A stretch of DNA of 13,038 nt from a virus. Location: positions 1-13,038 of IMG/VR virus record IMGVR_UViG_2149837021_000077. One strand, given 5' to 3'. Each line of letters opens with the position of its first letter. The stretch's first letter is position 1. The notes under the pieces are model-generated. The model worked only from the letters and a program-made list of their open reading frames with translations, was not told where the DNA came from and ran no database searches. This document shows positions 194 to 12,979 of this stretch, piece after piece. The position numbers and the translations under genes are program-made.

Positions 194-334
194 ATGGATG
201 ATCATTTATTTAAAAAGCTTGAAGAACTAGAATACAGAATAGTTCAACTAGCAAACCAGAATAGAGGTTTAGTTTGGGAAGAAGTAGAAGAAATGCCAAA
301 ACCAGAAATTACTAATGCAACATATACTGATTAA
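194..334 (+). CDS. small hypothetical protein, 46 aa (MDDHLFKKLEELEYRIVQLANQNRGLVWEEVEEMPKPEITNATYTD)
   Basis: ATG 194-196 and TAA 332-334. It is tightly packed between neighbours (2-nt and 1-nt gaps). The N-terminal half looks helical or coiled-coil. Function unknown. Confidence 0.4.
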   Translation: MDDHLFKKLEELEYRIVQLANQNRGLVWEEVEEMPKPEITNATYTD

Positions 335-335
335 T

Positions 336-479
336 ATGAAATACCAAACCTATAAAGTATGTATAAATGGAGTGTATTATGTATATGTAATACCAGAAAA
401 TAGTAAGTTTTTAGTAGACTTACAAACAGGAGATTTAATACCTAAAGAAGATGATAAATTATTTGAAATGATGGAATAA
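336..479 (+). CDS. small hypothetical protein, 47 aa (MKYQTYKVCINGVYYVYVIPENSKFLVDLQTGDLIPKEDDKLFEMME)
   Basis: ATG 336-338 and TAA 477-479. It is the last plus-strand ORF before the convergent terminator hairpin. Confidence 0.4.
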   Translation: MKYQTYKVCINGVYYVYVIPENSKFLVDLQTGDLIPKEDDKLFEMME

Positions 480-483
480 ATGA

Positions 484-511
484 AAATAGGAGGGCATAAA
501 CCCTCCTATTT
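484..511. terminator. bidirectional intrinsic terminator between convergent transcription units
   Basis: Perfect inverted repeat AAATAGGAGGG / CCCTCCTATTT (484-494 and 501-511) with loop CATAAA. T-rich runs follow on both strands (tctgttt on +, TTTTCATTTATT on -). The HNH TAG stop (506-508) lies inside the stem. Confidence 0.6.
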
Positions 512-829
512 CTGTTTAAATCTTTGATAATTACTAACCGATGAATGAATAGCTTTATGACAAACTGAACATAATGTTATTAAATCTTCCAAATGTTCCT
601 GCTCATTATATAAATTCTCATACGTCTTATGATGTACCGATAAAGACCTATTTCCGCCTTCCTGAACACATCAGTTACAAGTTTGGCAGTGGTAGTTATC
701 CCGCAATAATATTTGCTCTCTAATGGCCTTAAAATCCTTTGATCTTATATATCTTTGGTACTTTAAATATTCTTCACTTCTTACTTTCTTCTTTGTCTTA
801 TGAAGCAGTTTACTTGATTTGGAGTCCAT
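506..829 (-). CDS. HNH endonuclease, 107 aa, one in-frame TGA (671-673)
   Basis: Hand translation: MDSKSSKLLHKTKKKVRSEEYLKYQRYIRSKDFKAIREQILLRDNYHCQTCN[TGA]CVQEGGNRSLSVHHKTYENLYNEQEHLEDLITLCSVCHKAIHSSVSNYQRFKQK. It has CxxC...HH...N...CxxCHxxxH HNH/zinc-finger spacing. ATG 827-829 lies 2 nt after the endolysin TAA. This is the only CDS ending in TAG. It is absent from the ORF track because the TGA splits it. Confidence 0.75.
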
Positions 830-831
830 AA

Positions 832-1284
832 TTATATAATTGTAAATTTCTGTCTTCTCTGCAAACCCTCTTTATTCTTCAGTCCTAAATGAATTCAACT
901 AGCTATTCCATTTCTAGGTTTCTCATAAATAAGTTGATCAAAATCATACTTTTCAATAGCTTCAGTAATCCAAACCTGAAATTCTTTCATTTGGCCGTTA
1001 CTTGGAATTATATCTGCTGCATATCCTGTTAGATGGGCAGATGTCAAAGATCCTCCTACAGCTTTATTAAGCTCATTACATCTATAACCTGAATTCACAC
1101 TTATTGCTGGATTCCCCAACCGATTAACATCACAATACTCTGCCCAATCACTTCTTAATGGGTCTAAAAGTTTCTCGACTAACTCTATAAGGTGTTCAGT
1201 AATCTCTTTATTTGGAGTATTATCTATCTTCTTAATAGAAGCTGTATCAGATCTTGTTAATTCACTAATAGTAAAATATTTCAT
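832..1284 (-). CDS. peptidoglycan peptidase of the M15 (VanY / L-Ala-D-Glu peptidase-like) family, endolysin, 150 aa, one in-frame TGA (895-897)
   Basis: Track ORF 895..1284 carries SGYRCNELNKAVGGSLTSAHLTGYAADI (the SxHxxGxAxD Zn motif) and FDQLIYE. Reading through the TGA gives ...NGIAS[W]IHLGLKNKEGLQRRQKFTII, then TAA at 832-834. This restores the W-x-H motif holding the last Zn-ligand His of the family. Confidence 0.85.
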
Positions 1285-1298
1285 TATTTAATAATATC

Positions 1299-1445
1299 TT
1301 TAAGCATAGTATAACGGTAAAATAAATGACATCCTGCACCAAGTGCTATGAGTACTAATGTAATCCAAAATGGAATTACTTTTACCATTAAAAATACTAA
1401 GATTATAATTACTATTGCTATTAAATATTTCATCCAATATTTCAT
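1299..1445 (-). CDS. small two-TM membrane protein, 48 aa, holin candidate
   Basis: MKYWMKYLIAIVIIILVFLMVKVIPFWITLVLIALGAGCHLFYRYYYA has two hydrophobic segments separated by a Lys. ATG 1443-1445 and TAA 1299-1301. It sits directly upstream of the endolysin. It is not in the ORF track because it is too short. Confidence 0.5.
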
Positions 1446-1448
1446 AAC

Positions 1449-2102
1449 TTATTTATTTAAAATTATACTTACTTTAATTCCTGCATCTCTTAGTTTTACT
1501 CAAGTATCAACTGGCATCTCATTATCACAATAAGATAAGCCTAAAATTCCAATATCTCTATCTTCTGATTTTAAATAGAATATTGCAATCTTATTAACAT
1601 CATTAGATTTAAATGTATAATACATTCTTCTATCTAATTCCTTTATATCTTCAACATCTCCAAATCATCCTCCTTTTTTAGATGTTTCCAATATAAATAA
1701 ATAATCAGATAATAGGAAGTCTTTATAGTGACTTGAAACTGGAGCAACTCCAGGTTCTGTTTCTTCACTATTCATAATTCCATAAGTGAATGGTAATCCT
1801 CCTAATCCTGAAGTGCCATTATGATACTCAATAACTCAAGCTCTATCTGCATTCGTATCATTTAAAAGGTCTTTAAGGATATATCTAACCTTAAGATCCG
1901 CTTCTTGTCGTATTACTTGATTAGTATTATGAACTGTTTCTATATAACTTACAACTTTATCATATATTATTCCTGGATTAGTACTTATAATTATTACATA
2001 AGAAATAAATATAAATCCAAATCCACCTTTAATTATTTCCCACAGTCCATATTTATCTACTCATTCTAATACCTTTCCAAACCAGTTTAATTTATTTTCC
2101 AT
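1449..2102 (-). CDS. N-terminally membrane-anchored protein, 217 aa, four in-frame TGA (2061-2063, 1836-1838, 1665-1667, 1500-1502); function unknown, first gene of the lysis-proximal cluster
   Basis: Hand translation: MENKLNWFGKVLE[W]VDKYGLWEIIKGGFGFIFISYVIIISTNPGIIYDKVV...NADRA[W]VIEYHNGTSGLGGLPFTYG...TSKKGG[W]FGDVEDIKELDRR...EMPVDT[W]VKLRDAGIKVSIILNK, then TAA 1449-1451. The start ATG overlaps the upstream TAA (TAATG at 2100-2104). No TAA or TAG occurs in 654 nt of AT-rich DNA. It is invisible in the standard-code track. Confidence 0.65.
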
Positions 2103-2527
2103 TACATATTATCAGAACAAGTACCCAGAGTGTTGTCTACAGCTAAATCAACTCTAACAAATACTCCAGTGCAAATATCTTTGAACTTCTGATAAAATGG
2201 AGTAAAAATTAAAGGATAAGAAATATCAACTTCTGGATATTGGTTATTAAATCGGTTAATTATATTAGTTAATGCTAATATTCCAGCTGATTGCTCTTCA
2301 AGCTGATTATTATCAGTCTCATCCCATCTTGCTATAAAATAGAGATTTAAAGAGTAAGTAATAGTATCCTCATCCATATTAAATGTATTTGGAGTTATAT
2401 AAAATACATTATATTCAATAGTTGGGATACTATTAAGTTCATATATATCCTTACTTCCTACAAAATTAATATTGGGTTCTTCAAGAGCACAAGCTTTTAA
2501 ATTGTTTATTAATTCAAAATACGTCAT
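2102..2527 (-). CDS. hypothetical virion protein, 141 aa (possible neck or head-tail joining component, by position only)
   Basis: This is track ORF 2102..2629 trimmed to the ATG at 2525-2527 (MTYFELINNL...), which lies 1 nt after the upstream gene's TAA (2529-2531). The 34-aa N-terminal extension would overlap the upstream CDS. TAA at 2102-2104. Confidence 0.6.
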   Translation of the reverse strand: MTYFELINNLKACALEEPNINFVGSKDIYELNSIPTIEYNVFYITPNTFNMDEDTITYSLNLYFIARWDETDNNQLEEQSAGILALTNIINRFNNQYPEVDISYPLIFTPFYQKFKDICTGVFVRVDLAVDNTLGTCSDNM

Positions 2528-2528
2528 T

Positions 2529-3212
2529 TTACTTACTCTTTTTATTGTTATCACTTGAAGGGAAATCATAAGCTCTTTGCAGAGGACCTTCACAAGAATT
2601 ATATCTCCAACCTTTACCTCTAGCTCCACCTAACCAAATAGTGCAAGATGAACTTGAATACATATTTGGATACATATCTTTAAGAGGTTTATAAGAATAC
2701 AATTCAGGAAAATCATTATAATATGTAATTACCCAATTTTGCAATCTAGTTTTAAAGAAATCTGCTTTATCTCTATAATATTTCTTAATAAGATTAACTT
2801 GGCTAATATCAGAAGTTAAATCTTTCTCATCATCAGTCCTCATAACCCCAAAATTACTCAGCTTAAACGAAATAGGTATAGTAATCTCACTTAATACTTG
2901 ATAAAGTAAATAAGGCTGAATATAGTAATCTAGCAATTCTTTATATCTATGATTTTCTGGGTCATCTATTGAAGTAGGATCATAAATAGGAGGTTCTATT
3001 GGATGAACTGGTTTATTTGGATCTTTTCAATCAATTACTAATTTCTGAATCTTTTCTAAGAGCTTAGTTCCAATTAATGACTGAAGCTCAATATCTTGTG
3101 CAAGTTTAATTGCTGACTGAAGATATTTACCAGAAACATTATTGTCTAAATTGGATTCTGATTTTATATAATCTTCAGATATTAATAGTACATTTCTATA
3201 ATTATTTTCCAT
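2529..3212 (-). CDS. head-tail adaptor/connector-like protein, 227 aa, one in-frame TGA (3027-3029)
   Basis: Track ORFs 3027..3212 and 2529..2936 are in the same phase. The 90 nt between them translate without a stop (...KLVID[W]KDPNKPVHPIEPPIYDPTSIDDPENHRYKELLDYYIQ...). The M at 2936 in the track is an internal TTG (Leu). The start overlaps the portal stop (TAATG at 3210-3214). The function call rests on position after portal and an N-terminal ISEDYIK...AQDIELQSLIG pattern recalled from gp6-like connectors, which is weak evidence. Confidence 0.55.
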
Positions 3213-4294
3213 TATTCAACTTGTTTAGTATCAGCTTCATTAAGGCTAAATGGTGAAATTGTGATTGAATTCTGCATTCCAAAGATCTTATCAAATGAAT
3301 CACAAATCTCTTTCTGAATAGGTCTAATCATAGTTCTATTATAAAGCTTGAATGAAGATTCAAATTCTTGCTCATTAAAACCAGTTGAATCTGAGTTAAT
3401 TCCAAATAAGTTAGGATTAGCTCTGAAGGCACAGAATATTTGATCTCTGGTTCTCTCAGATAATGATTGATATTTCTCATCAAAATCATCAGAATCTAAT
3501 CTTTCAATAGTAGTCTTATTTGCCTCATCTGCATTATATGAAATCAATATTCTGCCAGCATTCTGATAACCAGAGAACTTCTCATTAATATTCCTCTCAA
3601 TCTCCTCTCTAATTTCATCTGTAGGTTCCCCATTATTAAAGTTAATAATAAGATTACCCATAAATCCATTATTGATGTTATTTAAATGGAATTCATTAAT
3701 ATTTTTCTCAGTTTCACAAGATAAAATAGCAGCTCCATAAACAGGAATAGGATATACTCCTCTTGTTATATAACCTTTATTATAAAATATACTAGCTGGA
3801 TTTTCATCCCCAGCTCCAAATTTTGGATATTTTATAGCTTTTACAGACCAAGCTGTCCAATCAGTTGCATAATATAATATATCATTCTTTTCGCTTGACC
3901 TTACATTCATAAAATCAATATGATATATCTCTGCAACTCTTCCGAGCATATCTCTAATTACTTGGATAGCATAACCTCCAAATATCATCTTATCAATAGT
4001 GATTTTTCTCATTATATCAACTATTGTTTCACCTTTCTTGTTTACAACTACTTCAAATCCTGGAGCATTACATTTAACATCGTTACCAACAATAAAGTCA
4101 GCAGAACCATTAATAATGGATTGGAGAGTGGCAACATTTAAATATAAATCCCATAGATATAATGGATATTTGTTATCTTCTCCCCACATTACATAATCTT
4201 TTCCCCTCACTTTAGTTTCTGTAGGTAATACGATATTACTTGCAATAAATGGATCAATAGCACTTAACTGAACTTTTGTTTTATTTTCGCTCAT
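3212..4294 (-). CDS. phage portal protein (HK97/PF04860-like), 360 aa
   Basis: Its layout matches portal family architecture as I recall it: WGEDNKYPLYLWDLYLNVATLQSIINGSADFIVG, GGYAIQVIRD...EIYHIDFMNVR, YPIPVYGAA, NGFMGNLIINFNNGEPTDEIREEIE...FSGYQNAGRILISY, DDFDEKYQSLSERTRDQIFCAFRANPNLFG, LYNRTMIRPIQ. It contains no TGA. Confidence 0.8.
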   Translation of the reverse strand: MSENKTKVQLSAIDPFIASNIVLPTETKVRGKDYVMWGEDNKYPLYLWDLYLNVATLQSIINGSADFIVGNDVKCNAPGFEVVVNKKGETIVDIMRKITIDKMIFGGYAIQVIRDMLGRVAEIYHIDFMNVRSSEKNDILYYATDWTAWSVKAIKYPKFGAGDENPASIFYNKGYITRGVYPIPVYGAAILSCETEKNINEFHLNNINNGFMGNLIINFNNGEPTDEIREEIERNINEKFSGYQNAGRILISYNADEANKTTIERLDSDDFDEKYQSLSERTRDQIFCAFRANPNLFGINSDSTGFNEQEFESSFKLYNRTMIRPIQKEICDSFDKIFGMQNSITISPFSLNEADTKQVE

Positions 4295-4673
4295 AACTTA
4301 CGTATGTATTAGGTTTGTCGTATTGATAATTATTATTCTCATAATCTCCAATTCTTATTAATCCTGTTCCCAATATAGGTATTGGTTTACCAGCAACTAA
4401 TATCTGAGTACCATTAGTAAGAGTATTATTATATGTAACCAGAATAACTGGATTGCCATATAACTCTGATCTAAATGGATTGTTTACATCAACTATAACT
4501 TGAAATTTATTTGGATTAGTAAATAAAATATATTGATATTCACCGTCTCTCATTCCTTCTTGAAGTGTAATATCAAACTTATAGTAGATATTCTCAGAAT
4601 AATTCTGATTTTCAAGATTAAATGTATAAACTTCTTTAGTAGTTGTATTTTGCATTAATAAAGTATAATTCAT
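4281..4673 (-). CDS. hypothetical protein, 130 aa
   Basis: Intact ORF ending in TAA that overlaps the portal start by 14 nt. It is the first gene after the 4750-4775 terminator hairpin. No recognisable motif. Confidence 0.55.
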   Translation of the reverse strand: MNYTLLMQNTTTKEVYTFNLENQNYSENIYYKFDITLQEGMRDGEYQYILFTNPNKFQVIVDVNNPFRSELYGNPVILVTYNNTLTNGTQILVAGKPIPILGTGLIRIGDYENNNYQYDKPNTYVSYERK

Positions 4674-4737
4674 ATTTTACAGCAATTTACATTAGTTTTA
4701 CATATCTTTTTCTTAAAATATAAACTAATTTACTAAT

Positions 4738-4775
4738 GTATTAAAATAATTAAAGGAGACCTAAGCCTCCTTTAA
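4738..4775 (-). terminator. intrinsic terminator downstream of the fibre locus
   Basis: Minus-strand transcript has TTAAAGGAG-GCTTAGGT-CTCCTTTAA (9-bp stem, 4750-4775) followed by TTATTTTAAT. It lies in the 153-nt intergenic gap 4674-4826. Confidence 0.5.
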
Positions 4776-4826
4776 TGTCAAGTTTTTTACTCACTCAAAG
4801 TACTAAGAAAAAATAAAAACTGACAA

Positions 4827-5849
4827 TTAGTTTGAACTTGCTAAAGTTCAGTTTTTAGATGCAGCTAATGATTTCTGTTCCTCAGTAAGTGCATTATAAA
4901 CATCTGCTGCAAATTGAATGGTTTGAGATACTTCTCCTGTTAAATCAGCAGCTTTATTTAGAATATTATCAATAGTCAAAGAATTAAGACTTGGCAGTTT
5001 ACTTAAATCTAAATACGTTTTTAACCCTACTATTCCTCCCATATCAGTTATATAAGTATTATCGGAAGATCAGCTATAAAATGGCCAATTAGAAAAGTTT
5101 TGTCCTGCTGCACTTATACTTGTAACATCTCATTCAGGAAGTTCAGTTATATTATCAGGTAATTGTTCATAGAATCCTCCTATTTCCATATTAATTACAT
5201 TACCCGTAATATTAAACTTCATAGTTGGTAATATTGTCACTCTATCTTTTTGAACTCCAGTAAACATACCAGACATATGAATTGAACACCTTGGTCTAGA
5301 ACTATTAAACTCAATTTCATTTACATTAATAACAGAGTATGCAAAAGTATTGGTAAAACTAGAATTACCATTCTCTTCAATAATAAATTTTTGAATTATT
5401 GGAGAACTGTCTTGTATTTGAGTATTATAAAAAGCAAAGTTAGCACTGCTACAATATATTTCTGCTGGAAATAAAATATCAGAACATTTGATTTGATAAA
5501 AAATATATTCTAAATCATAATTCAAAATATTAAATGTGCTATTTAAATTTATTGTTATGCCCTTTAAATTTGCGTCTTGAAAAAACCATTTTGTAGAACT
5601 AGGATCATCAAATGAATATGTAACATTATCATATTGCTCTTGTGTCATACTAGAATATGCAAGTGTTAATCCATAATCATTTAAATTAATCTTTCCTCCA
5701 CCACCTCCAGAAATCTGTCCTATCTTATCTGCATAGCTTCTAAAGGTATCTGAATCTGATACAGCAACACCTTTAGCTACAATAGCATCTTTAATGGCAC
5801 TCTTAGTACCTTCAAGATACGTTAATTTATCAGAAATTGTATTTGCCAT
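4827..5849 (-). CDS. tail fibre / receptor-binding protein paralogue 3, 340 aa, three in-frame TGA (5130-5132, 5070-5072, 4848-4850)
   Basis: Track ORFs 5130..5849 and 4848..5042 are in phase. The joining segment reads ...ELPE[W]DVTSISAAGQNFSNWPFYS[W]SSDNTYITDMGGIVGL... and the tail reads ...EEQKSLAASKN[W]TLASSN, then TAA 4827-4829. The N-terminal DKLTYLEGTKSAIKDAIVAKGVAVSDSDTFRSYADKIGQISGGGGG is typical of phage fibre N-termini. The C-terminal module is shared with the 6716 and 10464 genes. Confidence 0.7.
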
Positions 5850-5850
5850 A

Positions 5851-6474
5851 TTAGATTACTTCACCATTAATTGTATCAAGAGTAGTTGAAATATTACCAA
5901 TCTGAGCTTGAATTGCTGAGATTTCTCCATCTAACTCTGTCATCTTTGTATTATATGCATCTGTAGTTACATAGTTTGATAACTCACTTTTATCTGCTTT
6001 AAGTGCAACTTCATCTTTAGTAGCTAATCCAGATACATCAGGAATCTTATTCTCTACAGCTGTAAGTTCTTCTTTAGTAGCAAAATCACTAGTATCAGGA
6101 ATTTCTGCTTTAGTTGCATAATTACTTAAATCTACAGATAGTTGCAAACCTTCTCCATTTCTATGTAAAGATAGAGGTTGATTAGCTTGGAATACTTCCC
6201 CTTTAAGATTAGTAATCTCAGTATTAATTGGAACAAGCTTAGCATCTCTAGATTGATCTACTAAAGGAGGAACTTGATCTTCAATACTTTCTGTTACTTT
6301 AGTATTAATTAACTCTTCTGCTTTCTCTTCAGAAATGTAATTACCTTTAGGTTGGAATCTTTCATCTGCTTCAATCTTAGTATAAGAACCAACAGGAAGT
6401 TGTCCAGATTCAATACCACATTTCTTACTTACATAAAAAGTTTGTGTATTTTTAGTGTTCTTAAGTATAATCAT
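5851..6474 (-). CDS. coiled-coil tail fibre protein, 207 aa
   Basis: It has repeated xxYATKxE(L/V)-type heptad-like motifs (LSVDLSNYATKAEIPDTSDFATKEELTAVENKIPDVSGLATKDEVALKADKSELSNYV). It shares LSVDLS(N/T)YAT with the 800-aa fibre. It is tightly packed (TAA then ATG on both sides). Confidence 0.7.
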   Translation of the reverse strand: MIILKNTKNTQTFYVSKKCGIESGQLPVGSYTKIEADERFQPKGNYISEEKAEELINTKVTESIEDQVPPLVDQSRDAKLVPINTEITNLKGEVFQANQPLSLHRNGEGLQLSVDLSNYATKAEIPDTSDFATKEELTAVENKIPDVSGLATKDEVALKADKSELSNYVTTDAYNTKMTELDGEISAIQAQIGNISTTLDTINGEVI

Positions 6475-6476
6475 AA

Positions 6477-6713
6477 TTATCTAACTTTTATTGATTCCTC
6501 ATACTCTTTAGAAGCTTTAATAGCTAATTCTTTATATTCAGCATCCTTATCTAAAGAGACTTCTGATAGATGCTCTAAATAGCAACTTAAAGGACAGATA
6601 CATTCAGTAAATGAACTGTATAATTTAATATCCATTCCTTCTTTATAGTTAGTAAGTACATAACCTTCTTCTGGACTAACTACTTTATATTTTTCTTTAA
6701 TTTCAATTTTCAT
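6477..6713 (-). CDS. small fibre-associated protein, 78 aa, paralogue of 10243..10464 (possible fibre chaperone or adaptor)
   Basis: This is track ORF 6477..6740 trimmed to ATG 6711-6713 (MKIEIKEKYKVV...), 2 nt after the upstream TAA (6716-6718). The core PEEGYVLTNYKEGMDIKLYSSFTECICPL aligns with SDEGYFITSYKEGDDIKEYSASTILYCPL of the other copy (16 of 29 identical by hand). Confidence 0.6.
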   Translation of the reverse strand: MKIEIKEKYKVVSPEEGYVLTNYKEGMDIKLYSSFTECICPLSCYLEHLSEVSLDKDAEYKELAIKASKEYEESIKVR

Positions 6714-6715
6714 AA

Positions 6716-7837
6716 TTATGCAACTCGATTTATACTTCAATTCTTTGAAGCTATTAATGATTTCTGTTCACTTGTTAATTTATCATATGCAGTAGATTTG
6801 AATGATATACTTGTATAAGAGGCTACTGCTGTGCCAATAGATTCAGCTATAGTTTGTAATGAATCTGTAGATAGATTTGGAGATTGTGCAAAATAAAGAA
6901 CGCCTCCTTTAGTTAAACTCTCTCCTAATCCATTTAAAGCTCCTACAGTTACTAATTCTGGACAAGATGCCGCAAAACTAGTACAATCTGTAACAAGATG
7001 GCAATCTATTTCTGGTGTAGCTATTAACCTACTACAAGTACTAAACATATAGCTTATATCTGTAATTCCAGTAAAGGTAAAATTACTTGGAATAGTTGTT
7101 AGATATAATGCTCTATGAAACATATGATTACAATCTCCTTTAAATGGAATATTAATCGTTATATTATCTATATTAGTAGCTCCATCACTAGTTTCTGCAA
7201 ATGCCCATTTTGGATCTACTAATACAAGATTTTGAAAATTATTCATTACAGAGAAATCATTATTATCTATTTTTACTCCAATAAATAAATAATTTGCACT
7301 TACTTCTTTAGTAGTTGTAGGTATTTTAACATTAGATAAAGTAGCACTATGTATTATTTGACCCCAAAATTGAGATTCATTAGCCCATCGTCCATATGCT
7401 TCATTAAGATTAGTAATCTCCTGGTTATTTAGATCAAAATGAGATGTTTTAAAAAACCCTCCTTTTTTACTTAAATCTCCACTATTTAACTTTACATCTG
7501 CATATGTTTGAGCAGAACCTATAATACTACAAAGAGGTACACCATCTATATTAAGGGCTAATTCACTTAAATCAGCAGTGAAGCTAATTACTGTAGAATT
7601 AGAACCAGATCCTCTACCCATTCAATCCCTTTGTATATCATTTATAGTTCCATCATAACTGCTAAATACATAACTGCAAGGATCAACTATTGTAGTACCT
7701 TGAGGAACTGGATTAGCAACTGTAACTATTTGTGGATTACAAGGATTGATAGGCCAGACTTTGGTACTGCCGACATAAATAGCAGTACCTTGTCTGTCGC
7801 CTACATAAAATGTTTTTAAATCATCTCTAATATTCAT
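6716..7837 (-). CDS. BspA-like leucine-rich-repeat tail fibre / receptor-binding protein paralogue 2, 373 aa, two in-frame TGA (7622-7624, 6737-6739)
   Basis: Track ORFs 7622..7837 and 6737..7621 are contiguous and in phase (…DIQRD[TGA]MGRGSGS…). The tail reads …SEQKSLIASKN[W]SINRVA, then TAA 6716-6718. LRR-like repeats are present (CNHMFHRALYLTTIPSNFTFTGITDISYMFSTCSRLIATPEIDC...). The N-terminal FYVGDRQGTAIYVGSTKVWPI is fibre-like. The 5' boundary is less certain because the TGA is followed directly by ATG. Confidence 0.65.
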
Positions 7838-7838
7838 A

Positions 7839-10241
7839 TTATTCTACAATTAAATATTGTGTATTAGGATCTTTAGTTGATAAACCATCATACTCTGATT
7901 GAGTTAGAACAGTAATAGTATTTATTTGAGGTTGGGTTCCAGTTCCAGCTTCAATATAGTTTCCAGCAGGCTGAATACCTAAATCTGATAAACTCTTATT
8001 GCCAGATAACTCAACAGAATTAATCTGAGGTTTATTTGTTAACTGAGTATAGTCAGTAGTCCCTCCACCTCCAGATATTTCAAGATTACCTTCTCCTAAA
8101 ATACTTTCACCATTAATAGTCTTTATATTAGTCCCAGAGACTAATTGCTCCTGATAACTATGATAACTAGTATCTGCTGATACTCCAGTTGGAGTAATAG
8201 TAGTTTGAACTACAGTATGATTAGCTGTAGTACTTTCAAAATGGAAAATAGCTTGAATATTTTCTCCTGAAACAAAACATACTTCTGGAGCTGCTATATC
8301 ACCATAACCTAGAATATTTACATAATAAAGCTCAAATGGTGTTTTATTAGCTATAGCATTCTTAACAGCAGCGAAATCTCCAGAAAGATGAGTAGTGGAA
8401 TTTATAAATAGAAATGGAATATTAGAACCACTTTCAATTTCTATATTACCTTCTCCAAGTAAAGACTGACTATTGATTGTTTTGATATTAGTTCCACTTA
8501 CAAGTAAATCTTGCTTAGTAGCCATCTCTTTATCAAGTGAATCAATCTTATTTCCATCTTCTTCTTGCTTTGTTTTAATAATTGATATGTCTGAAGTATT
8601 AGTTGCTACTTGAGTAGATAAAGATTCTACCACAGAAGAATCAGCTTTACCAGCAAGTTCTGTTTTTGTTGCATAATCTCCTACAGGCTGTTTAGTAGCA
8701 AGCTGCTCATCAACATAAGTCTTATCTGCTTTACCTGCTAAATCTCCAGAAACCTCTGCTTCAGTTACAAAGTTAGAATCATTAGTAAGCTCACTAACTT
8801 TAGTTGGAATATCACTCTTTAAAGCATAATCTCCTTTATCTTGTTTTAGATCTATTTTTCCTTCTAAAGAAGTTTCTAATGTATTAACCTTATCATTAGT
8901 TGCATAAGTAGATAAATCTACAGATAATTGAGTCTTATCTTCATTAAAAGCTAATGGAGCTTGAGGAGCAAATACTCCTTGTTTTTCCTCAAGTTTGGCA
9001 TCTACTTCTTCTTTAGTATATCCTTTATTAATAAGATCAATCTCAGTAACTTTAACAGTCATATTACCATTATTTACTAAGATTGCATTAATAACTACTA
9101 ATACATCATTATCTTGGAAATAATAGCCATATAAATCAATAGTTTCAGGATGTTCAATAGTTGCAACAGGAATAACTATAATATCACCTTTATATGTAAT
9201 CTGGCAGAATAAATAGAAGTCCAGATTAGTTCTAATAAAGTCATAGATATGTTTCTGTCTTACAGGATCATTCTCATCTAAATTAAGTAAGAAATGATTC
9301 TCAAAAGCAGAGATTACATTATCTATAATAGATATATTCTTTCCTGCTGTAAGCGTTCCCTGTTTTGAAGCTATCTCTTTATTAATAGCTGTATTTAAAG
9401 CATCAATTTCAGCTTTGGTATATTTATCTGCTAATTGTGCGTATAGAGGGCCATTAACAATACCAGCTTGGTTAGTCTCTGTATTATATATTGGAAGTTC
9501 AACTGCTTCTCCAGTTTGATTACCAAATACAGGAGCTAAAGTAACTTTAGATGGGACTGATTGAATATTAATGGCAGGTACGATTGAAGCTGCTCCAGAT
9601 AATTCAGTTCCATTTAAAGATGGTTTGTTACGAATAGTATTATAATCTGCAGAAATAGTATTCTCTTCAATTACTATACCATCACCTTGGTTTAATTTAT
9701 TCTGTTTAGAATTTATTGCACTTTCAGTAGCTTCTTTTGTAAGATAATTATCTTCAACTCATTTTTCAGTAGCATATCCATCTAAGCTACTAATAAACCC
9801 ACTATCATTAGTTAATTGTGAAGTTTTTGTTGGTATCTCAGATTTATCAGCTTTATTGGCAACTGCATCTGAAATTTCATTTGTAACCTCTTCTTTAGTC
9901 GGATAATCAGCTAATCATTCAGTTATCTGATTATCAATATTTTCAGCACTTGGAATAGTACTCTTTATTTGCTCTAACTCAGAATTAATAGTAACAATAT
10001 CTTCAGATGACGCTAATCCCAACTCTTCCGAAGTCATATTACCATTTAACTCAATACTATTGATCTCAGGTTTATCCTGAAGATCAAAATAGCTATTAGT
10101 AGCTAACTGAGAACCATCCATAACCTTAACTTCATCATCCTTGTCAATAACAATAACTTTAGTCACATTTGACTTATCTATTGTTTCAACTTCAAGGACA
10201 TTAAGATAAGGAAGAATTGTCTTTTCAGTTTCGTTTGCCAT
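7839..10241 (-). CDS. long tail fibre protein, 800 aa, two in-frame TGA (9915-9917, 9759-9761)
   Basis: Track ORFs 9915..10241 and 7839..9062 are in phase. I translated all of 9063-9914 and found no TAA or TAG. Downstream of the TGA at 9759-9761, the 696 nt 9063-9758 are open with no ATG, GTG or TTG, which is why the track starts at 9062. Contexts are ...NQITE[W]LADYPTKEEV and ...GYATEK[W]VEDNYLTKE. Fibre motifs recur: NKPxINxxELxGN x3 and SGTNIKTINxxSxLGEGNxEI x2. Confidence 0.75.
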
Positions 10242-10242
10242 A

Positions 10243-10464
10243 TTATTTATTTTTATAAGATTCCTCTTGTTCTTTTAAATATCTTTCATTTGTTTCTGCA
10301 TCAATAACCCTATAAATAGATGTATCAAAGGTTAAAGGGCAATATAAAATAGTTGATGCACTATACTCTTTAATATCATCACCTTCTTTATATGAGGTGA
10401 TAAAATATCCTTCATCAGAGTATAACTTTATAAATATGCTAGTTTCAATATGTAAATGTTCCAT
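10243..10464 (-). CDS. small fibre-associated protein, 73 aa, paralogue of 6477..6713
   Basis: Intact ORF ending in TAA. Its start overlaps the upstream stop (TAATG at 10462-10466). It shares the EGYxxTxYKEGxDIKxYS...CPL core with the other copy. Confidence 0.65.
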   Translation of the reverse strand: MEHLHIETSIFIKLYSDEGYFITSYKEGDDIKEYSASTILYCPLTFDTSIYRVIDAETNERYLKEQEESYKNK

Positions 10465-11417
10465 TATGCTAATACCCAGTTTTTATTAGTAGCTATTTCT
10501 TTCTGTTTATCTGATAATTTTGCCAGATTGGTAGCTCCTAATGTTAAAGTTTTGCTATCCTCTCCAGTTAAATCAACCAATGCATTAATAACAGACATTA
10601 AAGAATCAGTAGTAAGATTGGTACTTGCTGATAGATATAATCCTGCTCTAAGTTCACCGTTTACTGTAATATTAGTAATTCCACCACATTTTGAAAATAT
10701 AGGATTTATTGAACTTTCTTGAGATGTGTATGATGGAATGTTTAATGTTACATCTGTTAATCTAATGCAATCTCCAAACATATTAGTAGTAGTTACTAAT
10801 TTAGGAGCGTCTAAATTAAGTGTTTTCAGGCTATTATATCCATATAAGGTACCTCTGCTAAACATATTAGACCCATCTGTTAATTCAGGCATTGGAATAG
10901 TGAATGATGTTAAATCAGCACATTCTGTAAACATATGTCTGCCATCTTCTAATTTAGGCAATTGCATAGTGAACTCCTTAATGTTTGATCTTTGACATTT
11001 ATATCTTCCATCAACTAAATTTTCTCAACCTACAACATTTGCAGGAACAGATGTTCCCGTAAACCTATATAAATTAACTACAGCTTGCGTAATATCATAA
11101 GTTGAAGAAGTTGGCACATTAATAGTAGCTTCAACTTTCTCCATAACATCATAATTAGAGTCAGGAAGAATCTCTATTGGTCCATTCTGAGTAATTGTAA
11201 TTGCTTTGGAAGCTTGAACTGTAGGAACTACTACATCAACAGATACATTTACCTTAGACATTCCATCATATCCCTCATCTGGCAGTACTTCAAACTCTGC
11301 ATTTTGAGTATATTCTACTGATTTTTCTTGTAACTTACATTCAGCAGCTTTAATTAAATCTAAATTTTTAGTTGTAGTATTTTTAGCTACTGGTTCTGAT
11401 GTGAATACTATTGCCAT
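10464..11417 (-). CDS. BspA-like leucine-rich-repeat tail fibre / receptor-binding protein paralogue 1, 317 aa, one in-frame TGA (11025-11027)
   Basis: Track ORFs 11025..11417 and 10464..10967 are in phase and the joint reads ...PANVVG[W]ENLVDGRYKCQRSNIKEFTMQLPKLEDG.... The N-terminus has a duplicated motif (EVLPDEGYDGMSKVNVSV and EILPDSNYDVMEKVEATINVP). The C-terminus has MFxxCxxLT-type LRRs and ends ...SDKQKEIATNKNWVLA, with the W as TGG at 10476-10478. Confidence 0.75.
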
Positions 11418-11460
11418 ATTATTTTTCTATAAAATATAAATTATTCATTATGTGGTATAT

Positions 11461-11497
11461 AAACAAAATAAGGGGCAAGTAAATTAATACTCGCCCC
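11461..11497 (-). terminator. intrinsic terminator after the capsid / 174-aa gene pair
   Basis: Minus-strand transcript has GGGGCGAGU-AUUAAUUU-ACUUGCCCC (9-bp stem including one G-U, 11472-11497) followed by UUAUUUUGUUU. It lies about 10 nt after the TAA at 11509-11511. Confidence 0.65.
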
Positions 11498-11508
11498 TCT
11501 TTCTGTTA

Positions 11509-12033
11509 TTAAGCACCTACAACGCTTTGGATAGCTTCTGCAGATAACTCATAAGGATAAGAGTCTGAATCTGTTGAAAGTGTCAGAGTATAAGCATTCT
11601 GATCACCTTTAGCAGTACCAGTAACACCCGTACCAGCGGAAGCGCTTACATAATCATCTTTACCTAAGAACCAATACTTACCATTGCTATCTTCAACAAC
11701 AACTGCAAGCTGACCAATTGATAAAGCTGCAATCTCTACTCGTTTTGCTGTTTCCATCTTTGTAAATACAAGAGCAAGCTCATTACTTACATAATTAACA
11801 CCAGCACTTTCATCTACATTTAAAGTTGAGGTTAGAGAACCAGTAGCCTTTCTAAATTGGTAGTTATACCATTTAGCTGAAGACTCAAGAGTAATAGCTG
11901 AAATCATATTGCTCTCAGGATCAACCGTTACACTTTTAACATCTGCATACTGGGTAATCCATACCTGTTTGATTCCACCCAATGAAGGTTGGCAATCAAG
12001 TGTGATTCCTGCGATAGTTATTAAACAAGCCAT
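11509..12033 (-). CDS. conserved virion protein, 174 aa, possibly a major tail / tube-like protein
   Basis: Intact ORF with no TGA, directly downstream of the capsid gene and upstream of a strong terminator. The pattern GGIKQVWITQY...YQFRKATGSLTSTL...ELALVFTKM...NGKYWFLG...TGTAKGDQNAYTLTL resembles small tail-tube proteins, from memory only. The CDS call is firm but the function is tentative. Confidence 0.6.
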   Translation of the reverse strand: MACLITIAGITLDCQPSLGGIKQVWITQYADVKSVTVDPESNMISAITLESSAKWYNYQFRKATGSLTSTLNVDESAGVNYVSNELALVFTKMETAKRVEIAALSIGQLAVVVEDSNGKYWFLGKDDYVSASAGTGVTGTAKGDQNAYTLTLSTDSDSYPYELSAEAIQSVVGA

Positions 12034-12073
12034 AATTTCAATATCATTTAGAAGTTAATAAAATCTATTGAAA

Positions 12074-12979
12074 TTAAGCCTTGGCGCCTAATACTACTTC
12101 GTCAGGGAAAGCAACTTGTACACCAGCGTTAAATTCAATAGCTAATCTGAACTCGCGGAAATCCTGTGAATACCACAATTCGAATTTCTCTTCATCGTTC
12201 ATCATATCTACACCATAGAAGAAGTTCTTGTCTAACTGACCAGCAACAATCTTATCAGTTCCATTAAGACCATTAACAGCAATAACCTTAACCTGTGAAC
12301 CAGGAAGATAAATCTCACCATTAAGGCTCTCTCCGCTATAGTGGAAATAGTTCTTCTCAACAAGTTCATTTACGAACTTACGGAACATATCAGCACCAAC
12401 AAGAATAGAAGCACCATCAAGAACCTTCTCAGGAATTGCATTATAAACTGCCATAATGTCAGTATAGGCAGATGTTCCAGCAATTGTTACATCTACAGTA
12501 CCAGCATCAGCAGCAAGAATCTTAAGCAGACCATCAAAATACTTCAAGTTATTAGTTTCTGAAGCCGTATCACCCTGCCAGATAGCTATCTCAATAGCCT
12601 CTTTTACGTTCTCTACAACAGCATTTACGAAATCCTCTTCAAAAGGAAGAGTCTTCTGACCAGCGGCTACCTTAACTGCATACTGAGTCCAGTATTTCAG
12701 CATAGCCTTATCGCAATATGCCATATTAATCTTAATATTACCAGTCTTAAGAATTCTCTGAGAAAGAGTCTGAGTTCCAGCCTCATCCCAACCACAAGTA
12801 AGACCATCACCGAACTGAACATCGGTAGATAACAGGTTAAGAGCAGCATCAGTTTTAATATCTGTCTGAAGATTAAACAAACTTGCACTCTTAGCTTTTA
12901 AAACCGCTTCCTTAATAAGAGGGAGACGTCTTTGCTCCACATAAGCAGGAAGAGTTGTCATTACAGGACTATTTGCCAT
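12074..12979 (-). CDS. major capsid protein, HK97-fold family, 301 aa
   Basis: Intact ORF ending in TAA. Its layout is typical of HK97-like capsid proteins (…IWQGDTA…YFDGLLKIL…, C-terminal …KFELWYSQDFREFRLAIEFNAGVQVAFPDEVVLG). All four Trp are TGG and it has no TGA. Confidence 0.8.
   Translation of the reverse strand: MANSPVMTTLPAYVEQRRLPLIKEAVLKAKSASLFNLQTDIKTDAALNLLSTDVQFGDGLTCGWDEAGTQTLSQRILKTGNIKINMAYCDKAMLKYWTQYAVKVAAGQKTLPFEEDFVNAVVENVKEAIEIAIWQGDTASETNNLKYFDGLLKILAADAGTVDVTIAGTSAYTDIMAVYNAIPEKVLDGASILVGADMFRKFVNELVEKNYFHYSGESLNGEIYLPGSQVKVIAVNGLNGTDKIVAGQLDKNFFYGVDMMNDEEKFELWYSQDFREFRLAIEFNAGVQVAFPDEVVLGAKA

What the first reader, a model, noticed from the sequence alone, without database searches (positions are those of the whole stretch)
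506..11417. Fifteen in-frame TGA codons in 8 of 17 late genes: this block is decoded with TGA = Trp, so the standard-code ORF track is wrong
The plus-strand 'tca' triplets at 671, 895, 1500, 1665, 1836, 2061, 3027, 4848, 5070, 5130, 6737, 7622, 9759, 9915 and 11025 are all in-frame TGAs on the minus strand. In each case the frame continues in the same phase with no TAA or TAG, and it ends at a TAA (once a TAG) that lies within a few nt of, or overlaps, the next ATG wherever a gene follows in the operon. Three observations support this. (1) None of my 20 CDS needs TGA as a terminator (19 TAA, 1 TAG). (2) Upstream of the track's ATG at 9062 there are 696 nt of open frame with no start codon, which is very unlikely by chance in DNA this AT-rich. 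(3) There are two internal amino-acid controls. The shared fibre C-terminal motif is KN-TGG-VLA at 10476-10478 but KN-TGA-TLA at 4848-4850 and KN-TGA-SIN at 6737-6739. In the M15 peptidase, the TGA occupies the Trp of the family's W-x-H Zn-ligand motif. Stop-codon-recoded phages are known from metagenomes, but any standard-table annotation of this contig would miss or truncate half its genes.
Basis: partly seen in the sequence, partly recalled or inferred. Interest (0 to 1): 0.9.

Follow-up and report, generated by a model that had tools for sequence, protein, structure and literature searches.

The report
Gut phage reading TGA as tryptophan
This window is part of a roughly 30-kb human-gut bacteriophage that reads the stop codon TGA as tryptophan, a known kind of viral code change that makes standard gene calling cut about half its genes, and here no suppressor tRNA explains it.

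Summary
The observation and the interpretation both hold. All 15 minus-strand TGAs are in frame. No TAA or TAG interrupts those frames, and eight fragmented gene sets join into proteins of 107 to 800 aa. Four independent lines show that TGA means Trp: the KN-W paralogue control; an invariant W-x-H column in the M15 endolysin (TGG where the codon was read); TGA/TGG swaps at 8 Trp sites among strains; and W at 32 of 76 aligned TGA-site columns in standard-code relatives (Gly 5 of 76).

Two points need correcting. First, recoding is genome-wide, not confined to a late block. The window is 100 % identical to a 30,028-bp human-gut contig. A 29.7-kb composite genome has 46 in-frame TGAs in 20 of 37 ORFs and no TGA terminators. 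Second, the head genes avoid TGA (0 of 10 Trp codons).

No tRNA, release factor or TrpRS was found anywhere in the genome. TGA makes up 41 % of Trp codons, against 77 to 95 % in Mycoplasma phages. The phage has a peptidoglycan endolysin, almost no Shine-Dalgarno sites, and relatives that use code 11 or code 15. Together these favour a standard-code, probably Bacteroidota, host, but the decoding mechanism is unknown. This is a new member of a known kind (Borges et al.; Cook et al. 2024).

The parts
506..829 (-). HNH homing-endonuclease gene (107 aa), with one in-frame TGA at 671-673 (codon 53).
   Evidence: Pfam HNH and PHROG HNH alignments span residues 22-100. The TGA is conserved in 3 strains. 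This is the only gene that ends in TAG.
832..1284 (-). M15 (Peptidase_M15_3) endolysin gene (150 aa), with a TGA at 895-897 (codon 130), which is the W of the W-x-H motif.
   Evidence: phrog_894 endolysin matches residues 1-145 at E = 2e-30. In alignment A2 the column is W in all 19 full-length homologues, and code-11 gene calls end exactly there. The codon is TGG in standard-code relatives L085 and L087.
1284..1445 (-). 53-aa holin-like gene encoding a hydrophobic protein directly upstream of the endolysin. It has no TGA and 2 TGG.
   Evidence: Translation and codon table. The exact protein is indexed in 429 blocks of the collection.
1449..2102 (-). 217-aa gene of unknown function whose product has a hydrophobic N-terminal segment. 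Four in-frame TGAs lie at 2061, 1836, 1665 and 1500 (codons 14, 89, 146, 201).
   Evidence: Standard-code relative L060 has TGG, TAT, TGG and GTT at these four columns. All four TGAs are conserved in 6 to 8 strains, and the neighbouring TGG at 2040 is TGA in 2 strains.
2102..2527 (-). 141-aa gene of unknown function with no TGA.
   Evidence: Called as 141 aa in related loci. The start at 2527 follows the TAA at 2529.
2529..3212 (-). DUF6712 gene (227 aa) with a TGA at 3027-3029 (codon 62).
   Evidence: Pfam DUF6712, E = 7e-11. This codon is TGA in 8 strains and TGG in 3.
3212..4294 (-). Portal protein gene (360 aa). It has no TGA in this strain, but Trp37 (4184-4186, TGG) is TGA in 7 other strains.
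   Evidence: Pfam Phage_portal and PHROG portal families; strain comparison.
4281..4673 (-). 130-aa gene of unknown function with no Trp codons.
4827..5849 (-). Fibre-like gene (340 aa) with TGAs at 5130, 5070 and 4848 (codons 240, 260, 334). The last sits in the C-terminal KN-W motif.
   Evidence: The TGG at 5586 is TGA in 3 strains.
5851..6474 (-). 207-aa gene matching coiled-coil families, possibly a fibre component. It has no Trp codons.
   Evidence: Weak matches to coiled-coil Pfam and PHROG families.
6477..6713 (-). 78-aa gene that is a paralogue of 10243-10464. It may encode a fibre chaperone (inferred).
   Evidence: The translations resemble each other. Each follows a fibre gene with 1 to 2 nt spacing.
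6716..7837 (-). Fibre-like gene (373 aa) with TGAs at 7622 and 6737 (codons 72 and 367). The second sits in the KN-W motif.
   Evidence: Position 6737 is TGG in 6 strains and TGA in 3; 7622 is TGA in 7 strains and TGG in 2; the TGG at 7205 is TGA in 1 strain.
7839..10241 (-). 800-aa tail-fibre gene (Phage_tail_C) with TGAs at 9915 and 9759 (codons 109 and 161). Under table 11 it is split into 108-aa and 407-aa ORFs, with a 696-nt stretch between them that has no start codon.
   Evidence: Position 9915 is CGA (Arg) in 6 strains.
10243..10464 (-). 73-aa gene, paralogue of 6477-6713, with no Trp codons.
10464..11417 (-). 317-aa fibre-like gene with faint LRR_5 matches. It has a TGA at 11025 (codon 131) and carries the reference KN-TGG-VLA at 10476.
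11509..12033 (-). 174-aa gene next to the capsid-like gene, with 3 TGG and 0 TGA.
   Evidence: phrog_19091; codon counts.
12074..12979 (-). Putative major capsid protein gene (301 aa) with 4 TGG and 0 TGA. It lies in a block with higher G+C (about 37 %).
   Evidence: phrog_11320, and phrog_1623 'virion structural protein'. It sits after protease-like and scaffold-like genes. Composition.
194..479 (+). Two small plus-strand ORFs (46 and 54 aa). They begin the oppositely oriented module that continues, outside the window, into a 573-aa helicase-like gene. Neither has a TGA.

Best explanation
The window is 13 kb of the structural and lysis region of a tailed phage of about 29.7 kb and 30 % G+C. 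The phage is widespread in human-gut metagenomes, and its whole genome is written in genetic code 4 (UGA = Trp; only UAA and UAG terminate).

Shown here:
- TGA is a sense codon.
- It stands for Trp.
- It is used in about half the genes across nearly all modules.
- It is never used as a terminator.
- It interchanges freely with TGG among strains.

Inferred:
- The host is a cell-walled, standard-code gut bacterium, most likely a member of the Bacteroidota. The phage therefore belongs to the class of stop-codon-recoded gut phages described by Borges et al.
- Full-length synthesis of most virion, lysis and packaging proteins needs a UGA-decoding state in the infected cell.
- The phage encodes no tRNA, release factor or TrpRS, so UGA must be decoded by something it does not visibly carry. 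Candidates are a host or co-resident suppressor tRNA, or loss or inhibition of RF2 that lets host tRNA-Trp read UGA.
- One protein has 11 TGAs, so per-site decoding must be efficient (inference).
- The reassignment is incomplete or costly. TGA supplies only 41 % of Trp codons, although A-ending codons make up 81 % of other NNA/NNG pairs, and the most highly expressed head genes avoid TGA altogether.

Confidence in the separate claims: TGA = Trp sense codon, about 0.97. Standard-code host with phage-specific recoding, about 0.65.
For: Frames and chance: (15 in-frame TGA, 0 TAA or TAG, P about 1e-68).

Trp identity:
- Paralogue motif.
- Invariant W-x-H column, encoded by TGG in L085 and L087.
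- TGA/TGG polymorphism at 8 sites.
- At TGA-site columns in 7 standard-code relatives, W = 32 of 76, W+Y+F = 48 of 76 and G = 5 of 76.

Translation continues after the TGAs: polymorphic sites by codon position 3, 1 and 2 number 246, 140 and 100 after the first TGA, against 106, 43 and 29 before it.

Source and genome:
- The window is 100 % identical to JGI contig Ga0495776_121057.
- The composite genome is 29,676 bp with 37 ORFs, 20 of them with TGA. It has 46 TGA and 68 TGG; stops are 31 TAA and 6 TAG; coding density is 96 %.
- A sister genome closes on itself at 29,846 bp.

No decoding machinery:
- ARAGORN found no tRNA in the window or in L001-L021.
- Rfam at E <= 5 gave no tRNA.
- Relaxed ARAGORN gave fewer hits than shuffled sequence.
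- No release-factor or TrpRS family appeared in the Pfam and PHROG scans or in the precomputed Pfam hits.

Against a native code-4 host:
- Mycoplasma phages MAV1 and P1 use TGA for 77 % and 95 % of Trp codons, and 93 % and 82 % of their genes contain TGA. Here the figures are 41 % and 54 %.
- The phage has an M15 peptidoglycan peptidase next to a holin-like gene.
- A Shine-Dalgarno core precedes only 2 of 34 starts. The controls give 20 of 26 for phi29, 2 of 15 for Bacteroides phage B40-8, and 6 of 15 and 4 of 11 for the Mycoplasma phages.
- The same family has standard-code members, TAG-recoded members, and a member with neither in-frame TGA nor TGA stops in the 20.7 kb examined (L060).
- 54 % of genes recoded falls in the 26-71 % range that Borges et al. 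give for phages of standard-code hosts, against about 90 % for phages that share their host's code.
Against: - The host is not identified. No CRISPR spacer or prophage link could be obtained, and the two MAG bins that hold distant relatives (a Bacteroidaceae bin and a CAG:239 bin) are weak evidence.
- No phage-encoded means of decoding UGA was found. Taken alone, that is what a native code-4 host would predict.
- In a sister clade even the opposite-strand helicase-like gene carries a TGA at codon 513. Small genes upstream of the terminase also carry TGAs. There is therefore no clean split between standard-code early genes and recoded late genes.
- The Shine-Dalgarno comparison rests on four control phages.
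- TGA under-use could also mean recent adaptation to a code-4 host.
Confidence: 0.8

Rival explanations
1. The phage simply shares the code of a host that natively reads UGA as Trp. That host would be a Mollicutes-like lineage or an unrecognised code-4 gut lineage, and nothing phage-specific would be involved.
For: - No suppressor tRNA, release factor or TrpRS anywhere in the genome.
- TGA is never a terminator.
- TGAs occur in nearly every module, including the terminase, and in the helicase-like gene of a sister clade.
- One protein has 11 TGAs, which requires efficient decoding.
- Cook et al. note that many code-4 phage predictions are phages of Mycoplasma or Spiroplasma.
Against: - TGA supplies only 41 % of Trp codons, against 81 % A-ending in other codon pairs. 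Mycoplasma phages of the same G+C reach 77 % and 95 %.
- Only 54 % of genes carry TGA, against 82-93 % in those controls.
- The head genes have 0 of 10.
- The phage carries a peptidoglycan endolysin, which a wall-less host would not require.
- Its starts lack Shine-Dalgarno sites, like a Bacteroides phage and unlike the two Mycoplasma phages.
- Relatives use code 15, which as far as I know no bacterium uses natively, also without a tRNA in the 14-16 kb held for each.
- I know of no cell-walled code-4 bacterium common in the human gut (own knowledge).
Confidence: 0.2
2. TGA encodes glycine (code 25), as in phages of Gracilibacteria and Absconditabacteria.
For: The in-frame TGAs and the coding-density gain are the same under code 4 and code 25. 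Gly appears at 5 of 76 aligned columns.
Against: W is the commonest residue at TGA-site columns (32 of 76), and the aromatic residues together make up 48 of 76. The M15 W-x-H column is invariant W. The paralogue motif reads KN-TGG. Strains swap TGA with TGG at 8 sites and never with GGN.
Confidence: 0.01
3. The TGAs are real stops. The genes would then be pseudogenes, split genes with reinitiation, or rare read-through or selenocysteine sites.
For: None, apart from the standard-table ORF track itself.
Against: - The chance of the frames staying open is about 1e-68, and one segment is 696 nt long with no start codon.
- Homologues span the TGAs.
- Polymorphism downstream of the TGAs is biased to the third codon position.
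- The same architecture recurs in hundreds of metagenome blocks.
- 46 sites genome-wide, aligned to Trp, do not fit selenocysteine.
Confidence: 0.01

Closest known systems
Stop-codon-recoded gut phages using code 4 (TGA to Trp). Described by Borges et al. (bioRxiv 10.1101/2021.08.26.457843, later Nat Microbiol 2022), by Yutin et al. 2021 for crAss-like phages (PMC7886860), and by Cook et al. 2024 (PMC11210395).
   Same: - Low-G+C gut phage with in-frame TGA in structural and lysis genes and no TGA terminators.
- Large gain in coding density under table 4.
- Close relatives use other codes.
- 54 % of genes are recoded, inside the reported 26-71 % range.
- Lack of a detectable Sup-TCA tRNA is common in this class: only 35 % (Borges) or 15 % (Cook) of code-4 genomes have one.
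   Different: - The genome is small, about 30 kb. The best-studied TGA-recoded clades (Jade, Agate, crAss-like) are 100-200 kb and carry tRNAs, and some carry RF1 and TrpRS.
- The complete genome has no tRNA at all.
- TGAs are not confined to a late module.
- The head genes avoid TGA, rather than structural genes being enriched for it.
The Garnet and Amethyst clades of Borges et al. (about 34 kb, alternatively coded).
   Same: Similar genome size. Structural and lysis genes lie together as one recoded unit. The paper says four of its eight clades mix codes 11, 15 and 4 (without naming them in the passages read), and the family found here mixes them too.
   Different: The published representatives are TAG-recoded, and the analysed Garnet example is an integrase-bearing prophage of Prevotella. 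No integrase was found here.
Phages of native code-4 hosts (Mycoplasma phages MAV1 and P1, Spiroplasma phages).
   Same: UGA = Trp, similar G+C (27-29 %), only TAA and TAG terminators, and no tRNA genes.
   Different: Those phages use TGA for 77-95 % of Trp codons, in 82-93 % of their genes. Here the figures are 41 % and 54 %. This phage also has a peptidoglycan hydrolase and almost no Shine-Dalgarno sites.

Membership tests
Code-4 (TGA to Trp) recoded bacteriophages | Many genes are interrupted by in-frame TGA, and coding density is restored under table 4 but not under other reassignments. | tested here: met
   15 TGAs in 8 window genes. ORF coverage of L004 is 0.57 under table 11, 0.94 under table 4 and 0.57 with TAG as sense. 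Genome-wide, 20 of 37 ORFs contain TGA.
Code-4 (TGA to Trp) recoded bacteriophages | TGA positions align with Trp in homologues. | tested here: met
   M15 W-x-H column; KN-W paralogues; W at 32 of 76 columns in standard-code relatives; TGA/TGG swaps among strains.
Code-4 (TGA to Trp) recoded bacteriophages | TGA is not used as a terminator. | tested here: met
   Terminators are 31 TAA, 6 TAG and 0 TGA. In the window they are 16 TAA and 1 TAG.
Code-4 (TGA to Trp) recoded bacteriophages | The element is a phage. | tested here: met
   Portal, terminase, capsid-like, tail-fibre, endolysin and HNH genes. The genome is a closed unit of about 30 kb.
Code-4 (TGA to Trp) recoded bacteriophages | The host uses the standard code, which is what separates recoding from simple code sharing. 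| not testable with these tools
   The evidence is indirect only: TGA share of 41 % against 77-95 % in Mycoplasma phages, the endolysin, starts without Shine-Dalgarno sites, and code-11 and code-15 relatives.
Code-4 (TGA to Trp) recoded bacteriophages | A phage-encoded suppressor tRNA(UCA), RF1 or TrpRS. This is frequent in the class but not universal. | tested here: not met
   No tRNA by ARAGORN, by Rfam at E <= 5, or by relaxed ARAGORN compared with shuffles. No release-factor or TrpRS family hit. The literature reports such tRNAs in only 15-35 % of code-4 phages.
Code-4 (TGA to Trp) recoded bacteriophages | Recoded codons are concentrated in late structural and lysis genes, with early genes in standard code. 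| tested here: inconclusive
   The opposite-strand helicase-like gene is TGA-free in this clade, but the difference is not significant (the module has 1 of 7, P = 0.10), and the gene has a TGA in a sister clade. The head block has 0 of 10 (P = 0.002). The terminase and the small genes upstream of it contain TGAs.
Phages of native code-4 hosts (Mollicutes) | TGA is the predominant Trp codon, tracking the A/G bias of other codon pairs, and is present in nearly all genes. | tested here: not met
   41 % TGA against an 81 % NNA share, and 54 % of genes. The controls MAV1 and P1 show 77 % and 95 % TGA, in 93 % and 82 % of genes.
Phages of native code-4 hosts (Mollicutes) | The host has no cell wall, so no peptidoglycan hydrolase is needed. 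| tested here: not met
   An M15 peptidase lies next to a holin-like gene.
Code-25 (TGA to Gly) phages of Gracilibacteria and Absconditabacteria | TGA positions align with Gly. | tested here: not met
   Gly at 5 of 76 columns against Trp at 32 of 76. No TGA/GGN swaps among strains.
Garnet and Amethyst clades (Borges et al.) | Terminase-tree placement within the clade. | not tested
Only the size (about 30 kb against 34 +/- 5 kb) and the mixed codes agree.

The most novel reading that the evidence does not exclude
A very small (30-kb) gut phage with no tRNA achieves efficient UGA-to-Trp decoding in a standard-code, probably Bacteroidota, host by a route that does not use a phage suppressor tRNA. 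It might, for example, inactivate or deplete RF2 so that host tRNA-Trp reads UGA, or rely on a host or co-resident element's suppressor. Alternatively, its host is an unrecognised cell-walled gut bacterium that natively uses code 4. In either case the family records a codon-capture series: TGA as stop (L020, L085, L087), TGA absent as stop or sense in the stretch examined (L060), and TGA as 41-56 % of Trp codons (this clade).
Probability: 0.25. Interest if true: 0.75.

Novelty: new member of a known kind. Interest (0 to 1): 0.4.

Why it matters
Practical value. Public annotations of this common gut phage are fragmented. The JGI and ENA gene calls split at the TGAs, and NCBI TPA endolysin entries for relatives are truncated. 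Table 4 restores full-length fibres, endolysin, terminase and three giant proteins.

Biological value. Code-4 phages are rare in the human gut: 46 vOTUs, or 0.08 % of UHGV, according to Cook et al. 2024. The metaproteomic study read here (Peters et al. 2022) validated TAG-to-Gln (code 15) only. I did not find experimental validation of TGA-to-Trp in gut phages in the papers I read.

This lineage is abundant (its proteins are indexed in 210 to 429 blocks of the collection), compact and free of tRNA genes. It has natural TGA/TGG polymorphism, and it has relatives in standard code, TAG-recoded code, and a state without TGA. That makes it a tractable system for two questions: how UGA is decoded without a phage suppressor tRNA, and how stop-codon capture proceeds.

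Tried and rejected
- Megablast of the whole window and tblastn of the capsid-like protein against INPHARED phages gave no match.
- A PDB sequence search with the endolysin covered only the H-x6-D region (1LBU) and not the TGA site. The helicase-like protein had no PDB match and only sub-threshold Pfam Helicase_C_2.
- PHROG scans of the giant proteins and of the other unassigned proteins gave nothing, apart from weak HTH/sigma-factor-like matches for the 81-aa protein (Pfam HTH_50 and Sigma70_r4_2).
- Suppressor tRNA. Standard ARAGORN and Rfam were negative. At an 80 % threshold ARAGORN reports 7 poor cloverleaves, all inside genes. One has anticodon 'tca' at window 2992-3089 (+), but that triplet is just the antisense of the TGA codon at 3027. 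Shuffled genomes give more such hits (mean 11.8, with 4 'tca' hits in 30 shuffles), so I rejected it.
- Prophage or host contig. Sister phages lie on contigs of 148,631 and 193,455 bp. The end of the 148-kb contig is a 29,846-bp unit closed by a 2,256-bp exact repeat, preceded by different fibre-like sequence. IMG/VR lists the whole contig as viral. I read it as an assembly chain of co-occurring variants, not an integration.
- The GTDB scan found only two distant relatives, on short contigs binned into MAGs. I do not accept these as host evidence.
- The Bacteroidetes -7 promoter motif TAnnTTTG occurs 4 times in the intergenic regions, against about 2 expected, which is not significant.
- The three in-frame TAA or TAG codons seen in other strains of gene 4827-5849 lie in a variable fibre region, and I take them as probable alignment or indel artefacts; I did not check them.

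Full report
**1. The observation**

Each lies in the reading frame of a minus-strand gene. With TAA and TAG as the only stops, the fragmented standard-table ORFs join into eight proteins of 107, 150, 217, 227, 340, 373, 800 and 317 aa.

In the 4,062 in-frame codons of the 17 minus-strand genes there are 15 TGA, 0 TAA and 0 TAG. The other two frames carry TAA or TAG at 0.087 per codon. At that rate, the probability that all segments downstream of the first TGA stay open is about 1e-68.

The 696 nt at 9063-9758 contain no stop and no ATG, GTG or TTG. The terminators are 16 TAA and 1 TAG, and most lie within -1 to +3 nt of the next start.

**2. TGA means tryptophan**

Five lines of evidence agree.

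- **Internal paralogue control.** The three fibre-like proteins share a C-terminal ...QK-x-[LI]A-x-x-KN-W motif. The W is TGG at 10476 and TGA at 4848 and 6737.
- **Endolysin.** The M15 endolysin TGA (895) falls on a column that is W in all 19 full-length homologues aligned, followed by x-H. Shorter database entries end exactly at that column. In two standard-code relatives the codon there is TGG.
- **Population data.** Among 11 closely related genomes (mostly 90-99 % identical to the window), TGA and TGG interchange at eight Trp sites: 2040, 3027, 4184, 5586, 6737, 7205, 7622 and the like. One example is portal Trp37, which is TGG in the window and TGA in seven other strains. The only other change at a TGA site is TGA/CGA at 9915.
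- **Standard-code relatives.** Seven standard-code relatives of the same phage family have W at 32 of 76 aligned TGA-site columns, an aromatic residue at 48 of 76, and Gly at 5 of 76.
- **Polymorphism by codon position.** Downstream of the first TGA, polymorphism is biased to the third codon position (246, 140 and 100 sites for positions 3, 1 and 2), as it is upstream (106, 43 and 29). The same frame is therefore under selection past the TGAs.

Glycine (code 25), real stops, pseudogenes and selenocysteine are all excluded by these data.

**3. What the window is**

The capsid-like protein is encoded, residue for residue, on about 30-kb contigs in 210 blocks of the public collection. The holin-like protein is indexed in 429 blocks. 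The window is 100 % identical to JGI contig 3300045988|Ga0495776_121057 (30,028 bp), and the other sources are human-gut metagenomes.

Pipelines that choose the code automatically (Logan)-, 800- and 373-aa proteins. JGI and ENA calls are fragmented at the TGAs, and two NCBI TPA endolysin entries for relatives are only 127 and 114 aa.

I built a composite genome from L004, the window and L009. It has these properties:

- 29,676 bp, 29.8 % G+C and 96 % coding under table 4.
- 37 ORFs, of which 20 carry in-frame TGA.
- 46 TGA against 68 TGG.
- Stops are 31 TAA, 6 TAG and no TGA.

A sister genome closes on itself at 29,846 bp.

The gene content is as follows:

- Small and large terminase subunits.
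- Three giant proteins of 726, 1118 and 896 aa. The last is long, rich in coiled-coil-type sequence and tape-measure-like by inspection.
- Protease-like, scaffold-like and capsid-like proteins.
- A fibre module.
- The portal protein, a DUF6712 protein, a holin-like protein, the M15 endolysin and an HNH endonuclease.
- On the opposite strand, a 573-aa protein with helicase-like motifs.

**4.

Recoding is not a property of a late block. TGAs occur in the large terminase (1), the giant proteins (4, 11 and 5) and the small genes upstream of the terminase.

The block of protease-like, scaffold-like, capsid-like and 174-aa genes has 10 TGG and no TGA (P = 0.002 against the 45 % TGA share elsewhere). 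It is also richer in G+C (36.8 %).

The helicase-like gene is TGA-free in this clade, which is not significant. In a sister clade it carries a TGA at codon 513.

**5. Decoding machinery**

No tRNA was found by ARAGORN in the window or in L001-L021. Together these cover the whole genome in many strains. Rfam at E <= 5 found none either. Relaxed ARAGORN gives fewer candidates than shuffled sequence. No release-factor or Trp-tRNA-synthetase family appears in any Pfam or PHROG result.

This is not unusual for the class. Only 35 % (Borges et al.) or 15 % (Cook et al.) of code-4 phage genomes have a Sup-TCA tRNA.

**6. Native code-4 host, or recoding on a standard-code host?**

The evidence favours a standard-code host.

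- **TGA share.** TGA supplies 41 % of Trp codons, while A-ending codons make up 81 % of twelve other NNA/NNG pairs. Two Mycoplasma phages of similar G+C use TGA for 77 % and 95 % of Trp codons, and 93 % and 82 % of their genes contain TGA. Here 54 % of ORFs do. That lies inside the 26-71 % reported for recoded phages of standard-code hosts and below the roughly 90 % for phages that share their host's code.
- **Cell wall.** The phage carries a peptidoglycan peptidase next to a holin-like gene, so the host has a wall.
- **Translation starts.** Only 2 of 34 starts have a Shine-Dalgarno core. The controls give 20 of 26 in phi29, 2 of 15 in Bacteroides phage B40-8, and 6 of 15 and 4 of 11 in the Mycoplasma phages. 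Translation without Shine-Dalgarno sites is typical of Bacteroidota (established knowledge).
- **Family context.** An IMG/VR scan with a capsid alignment found 80 related loci, and the family spans several codes:
  - Loci with capsid identity of 65 % or more use code 4, except L060 (28 % G+C). L060 has neither in-frame TGA nor TGA terminators in the 20.7 kb held.
  - More distant members use the standard code at 29-58 % G+C, several with TGA stops.
  - Two loci (L021, L100) are TAG-recoded.

  This is the path Borges et al. proposed, in which low G+C removes TGA stops and TGA then re-emerges as a sense codon.

Against this view: the host is unidentified, and the absence of any phage-encoded decoder is exactly what a native code-4 host would predict. 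I put the standard-code-host reading at about 0.65 and the native code-4 host at about 0.2.

**7. Mechanism (inferred)**

Most virion, lysis and packaging proteins cannot be made full-length unless UGA is decoded. One protein has 11 TGAs, so per-site efficiency must be high. The decoder is not a recognisable phage tRNA. The candidates are a host or co-resident suppressor tRNA, or loss or inhibition of RF2 that lets tRNA-Trp read UGA. The avoidance of TGA in the most abundant proteins, and its overall under-use, suggest that decoding is costly or limiting.

**8. Comparison with what is known, and novelty**

This is the phenomenon described by Yutin et al. 2021, Borges et al. 2021/2022 and Cook et al. 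2024. It was first reported, to my knowledge, by Ivanova et al. 2014. By size and mixed codes the lineage resembles the Garnet and Amethyst clades, but I could not test membership.

It is a new member of a known kind. It is notable for its small tRNA-free genome, its high prevalence, its intermediate TGA use and the range of codes in its family. The metaproteomic study I read validated code 15 only. I did not find experimental validation of TGA-to-Trp in gut phages in the papers read here.

**9. Verdict**

Interest is moderate (0.4): the finding is correct and useful for annotation, but it would not surprise a specialist. The open question is how UGA is decoded without a phage tRNA.

Noticed in passing
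L020, L021, L060, L100 and other loci: The same phage family contains standard-code members at 29-58 % G+C, two TAG-recoded members (L021, L100), and a 28 % G+C member (L060) with no TGA as stop or sense in the 20.7 kb held. Together they form a natural series for stop-codon capture.
   Followed up: partly
window 11509-12979 (and composite genome 8426-11117): The head-gene block is richer in G+C (36.8 % against about 30 %). It has a lower A-ending codon share (0.69 against 0.82) and no TGA among 10 Trp codons. Possible causes are expression-linked codon choice or a recombinant origin.
   Followed up: partly
window 506-829; L001, L002, L007, L010, L013 and L015 gene lists: Homing-endonuclease genes (HNH, GIY-YIG, NUMOD) come and go between strains at several positions. 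The HNH gene of the window is replaced by unrelated sequence in L007, L011 and L012.
   Followed up: partly
window 6477-6713 and 10243-10464: Two small paralogous genes (78 and 73 aa) each follow a fibre gene directly. They may encode fibre-assembly chaperones. The fibre module itself is mosaic between strains.
   Followed up: no
L018 and L048 (JGI contig Ga0495776_101949, 148,631 bp); L013 (ENA scaffold, 193,455 bp): Sister phages sit on contigs of 150-190 kb. The end of the 148-kb contig is a 29,846-bp unit closed by a 2,256-bp exact repeat and preceded by different fibre-like sequence. It looks like an assembly chain of co-occurring variants, not a prophage.
   Followed up: partly
all gene starts of the composite genome, including window 506-12979: Almost no Shine-Dalgarno sequences (2 of 34 starts). 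Starts are preceded by A/T-rich runs such as TAATT-ATG, which resembles the pattern in a Bacteroides phage.
   Followed up: yes
window 9915-9917: This TGA (codon 109 of the 800-aa fibre) is CGA (Arg) in six other strains. It is the only TGA site whose alternative in other strains is not TGG.
   Followed up: no
window 2992-3089 (+): At a relaxed threshold ARAGORN draws a 98-nt 'tRNA-SeC(tca)' antisense to the DUF6712 gene. Its anticodon is the complement of the in-frame TGA at 3027. The stems are poor, and shuffled sequence gives more such hits, so I judged it a false positive.
   Followed up: yes
composite genome (L004 1-10000 and window): The gene order is unusual. Three giant proteins, one tape-measure-like, lie upstream of the head genes. 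In this clade the fibre module is inserted between the capsid-proximal 174-aa gene and the portal gene, whereas L020 and L021 have the portal directly after it.
   Followed up: no
L009 11435-13156 (outside the window; opposite strand): The 573-aa protein has Walker-A-like and DEYH motifs and only a sub-threshold Pfam Helicase_C_2 match. It is the only large gene on the opposite strand and the likely replication or early function. It has no PHROG or PDB match.
   Followed up: partly
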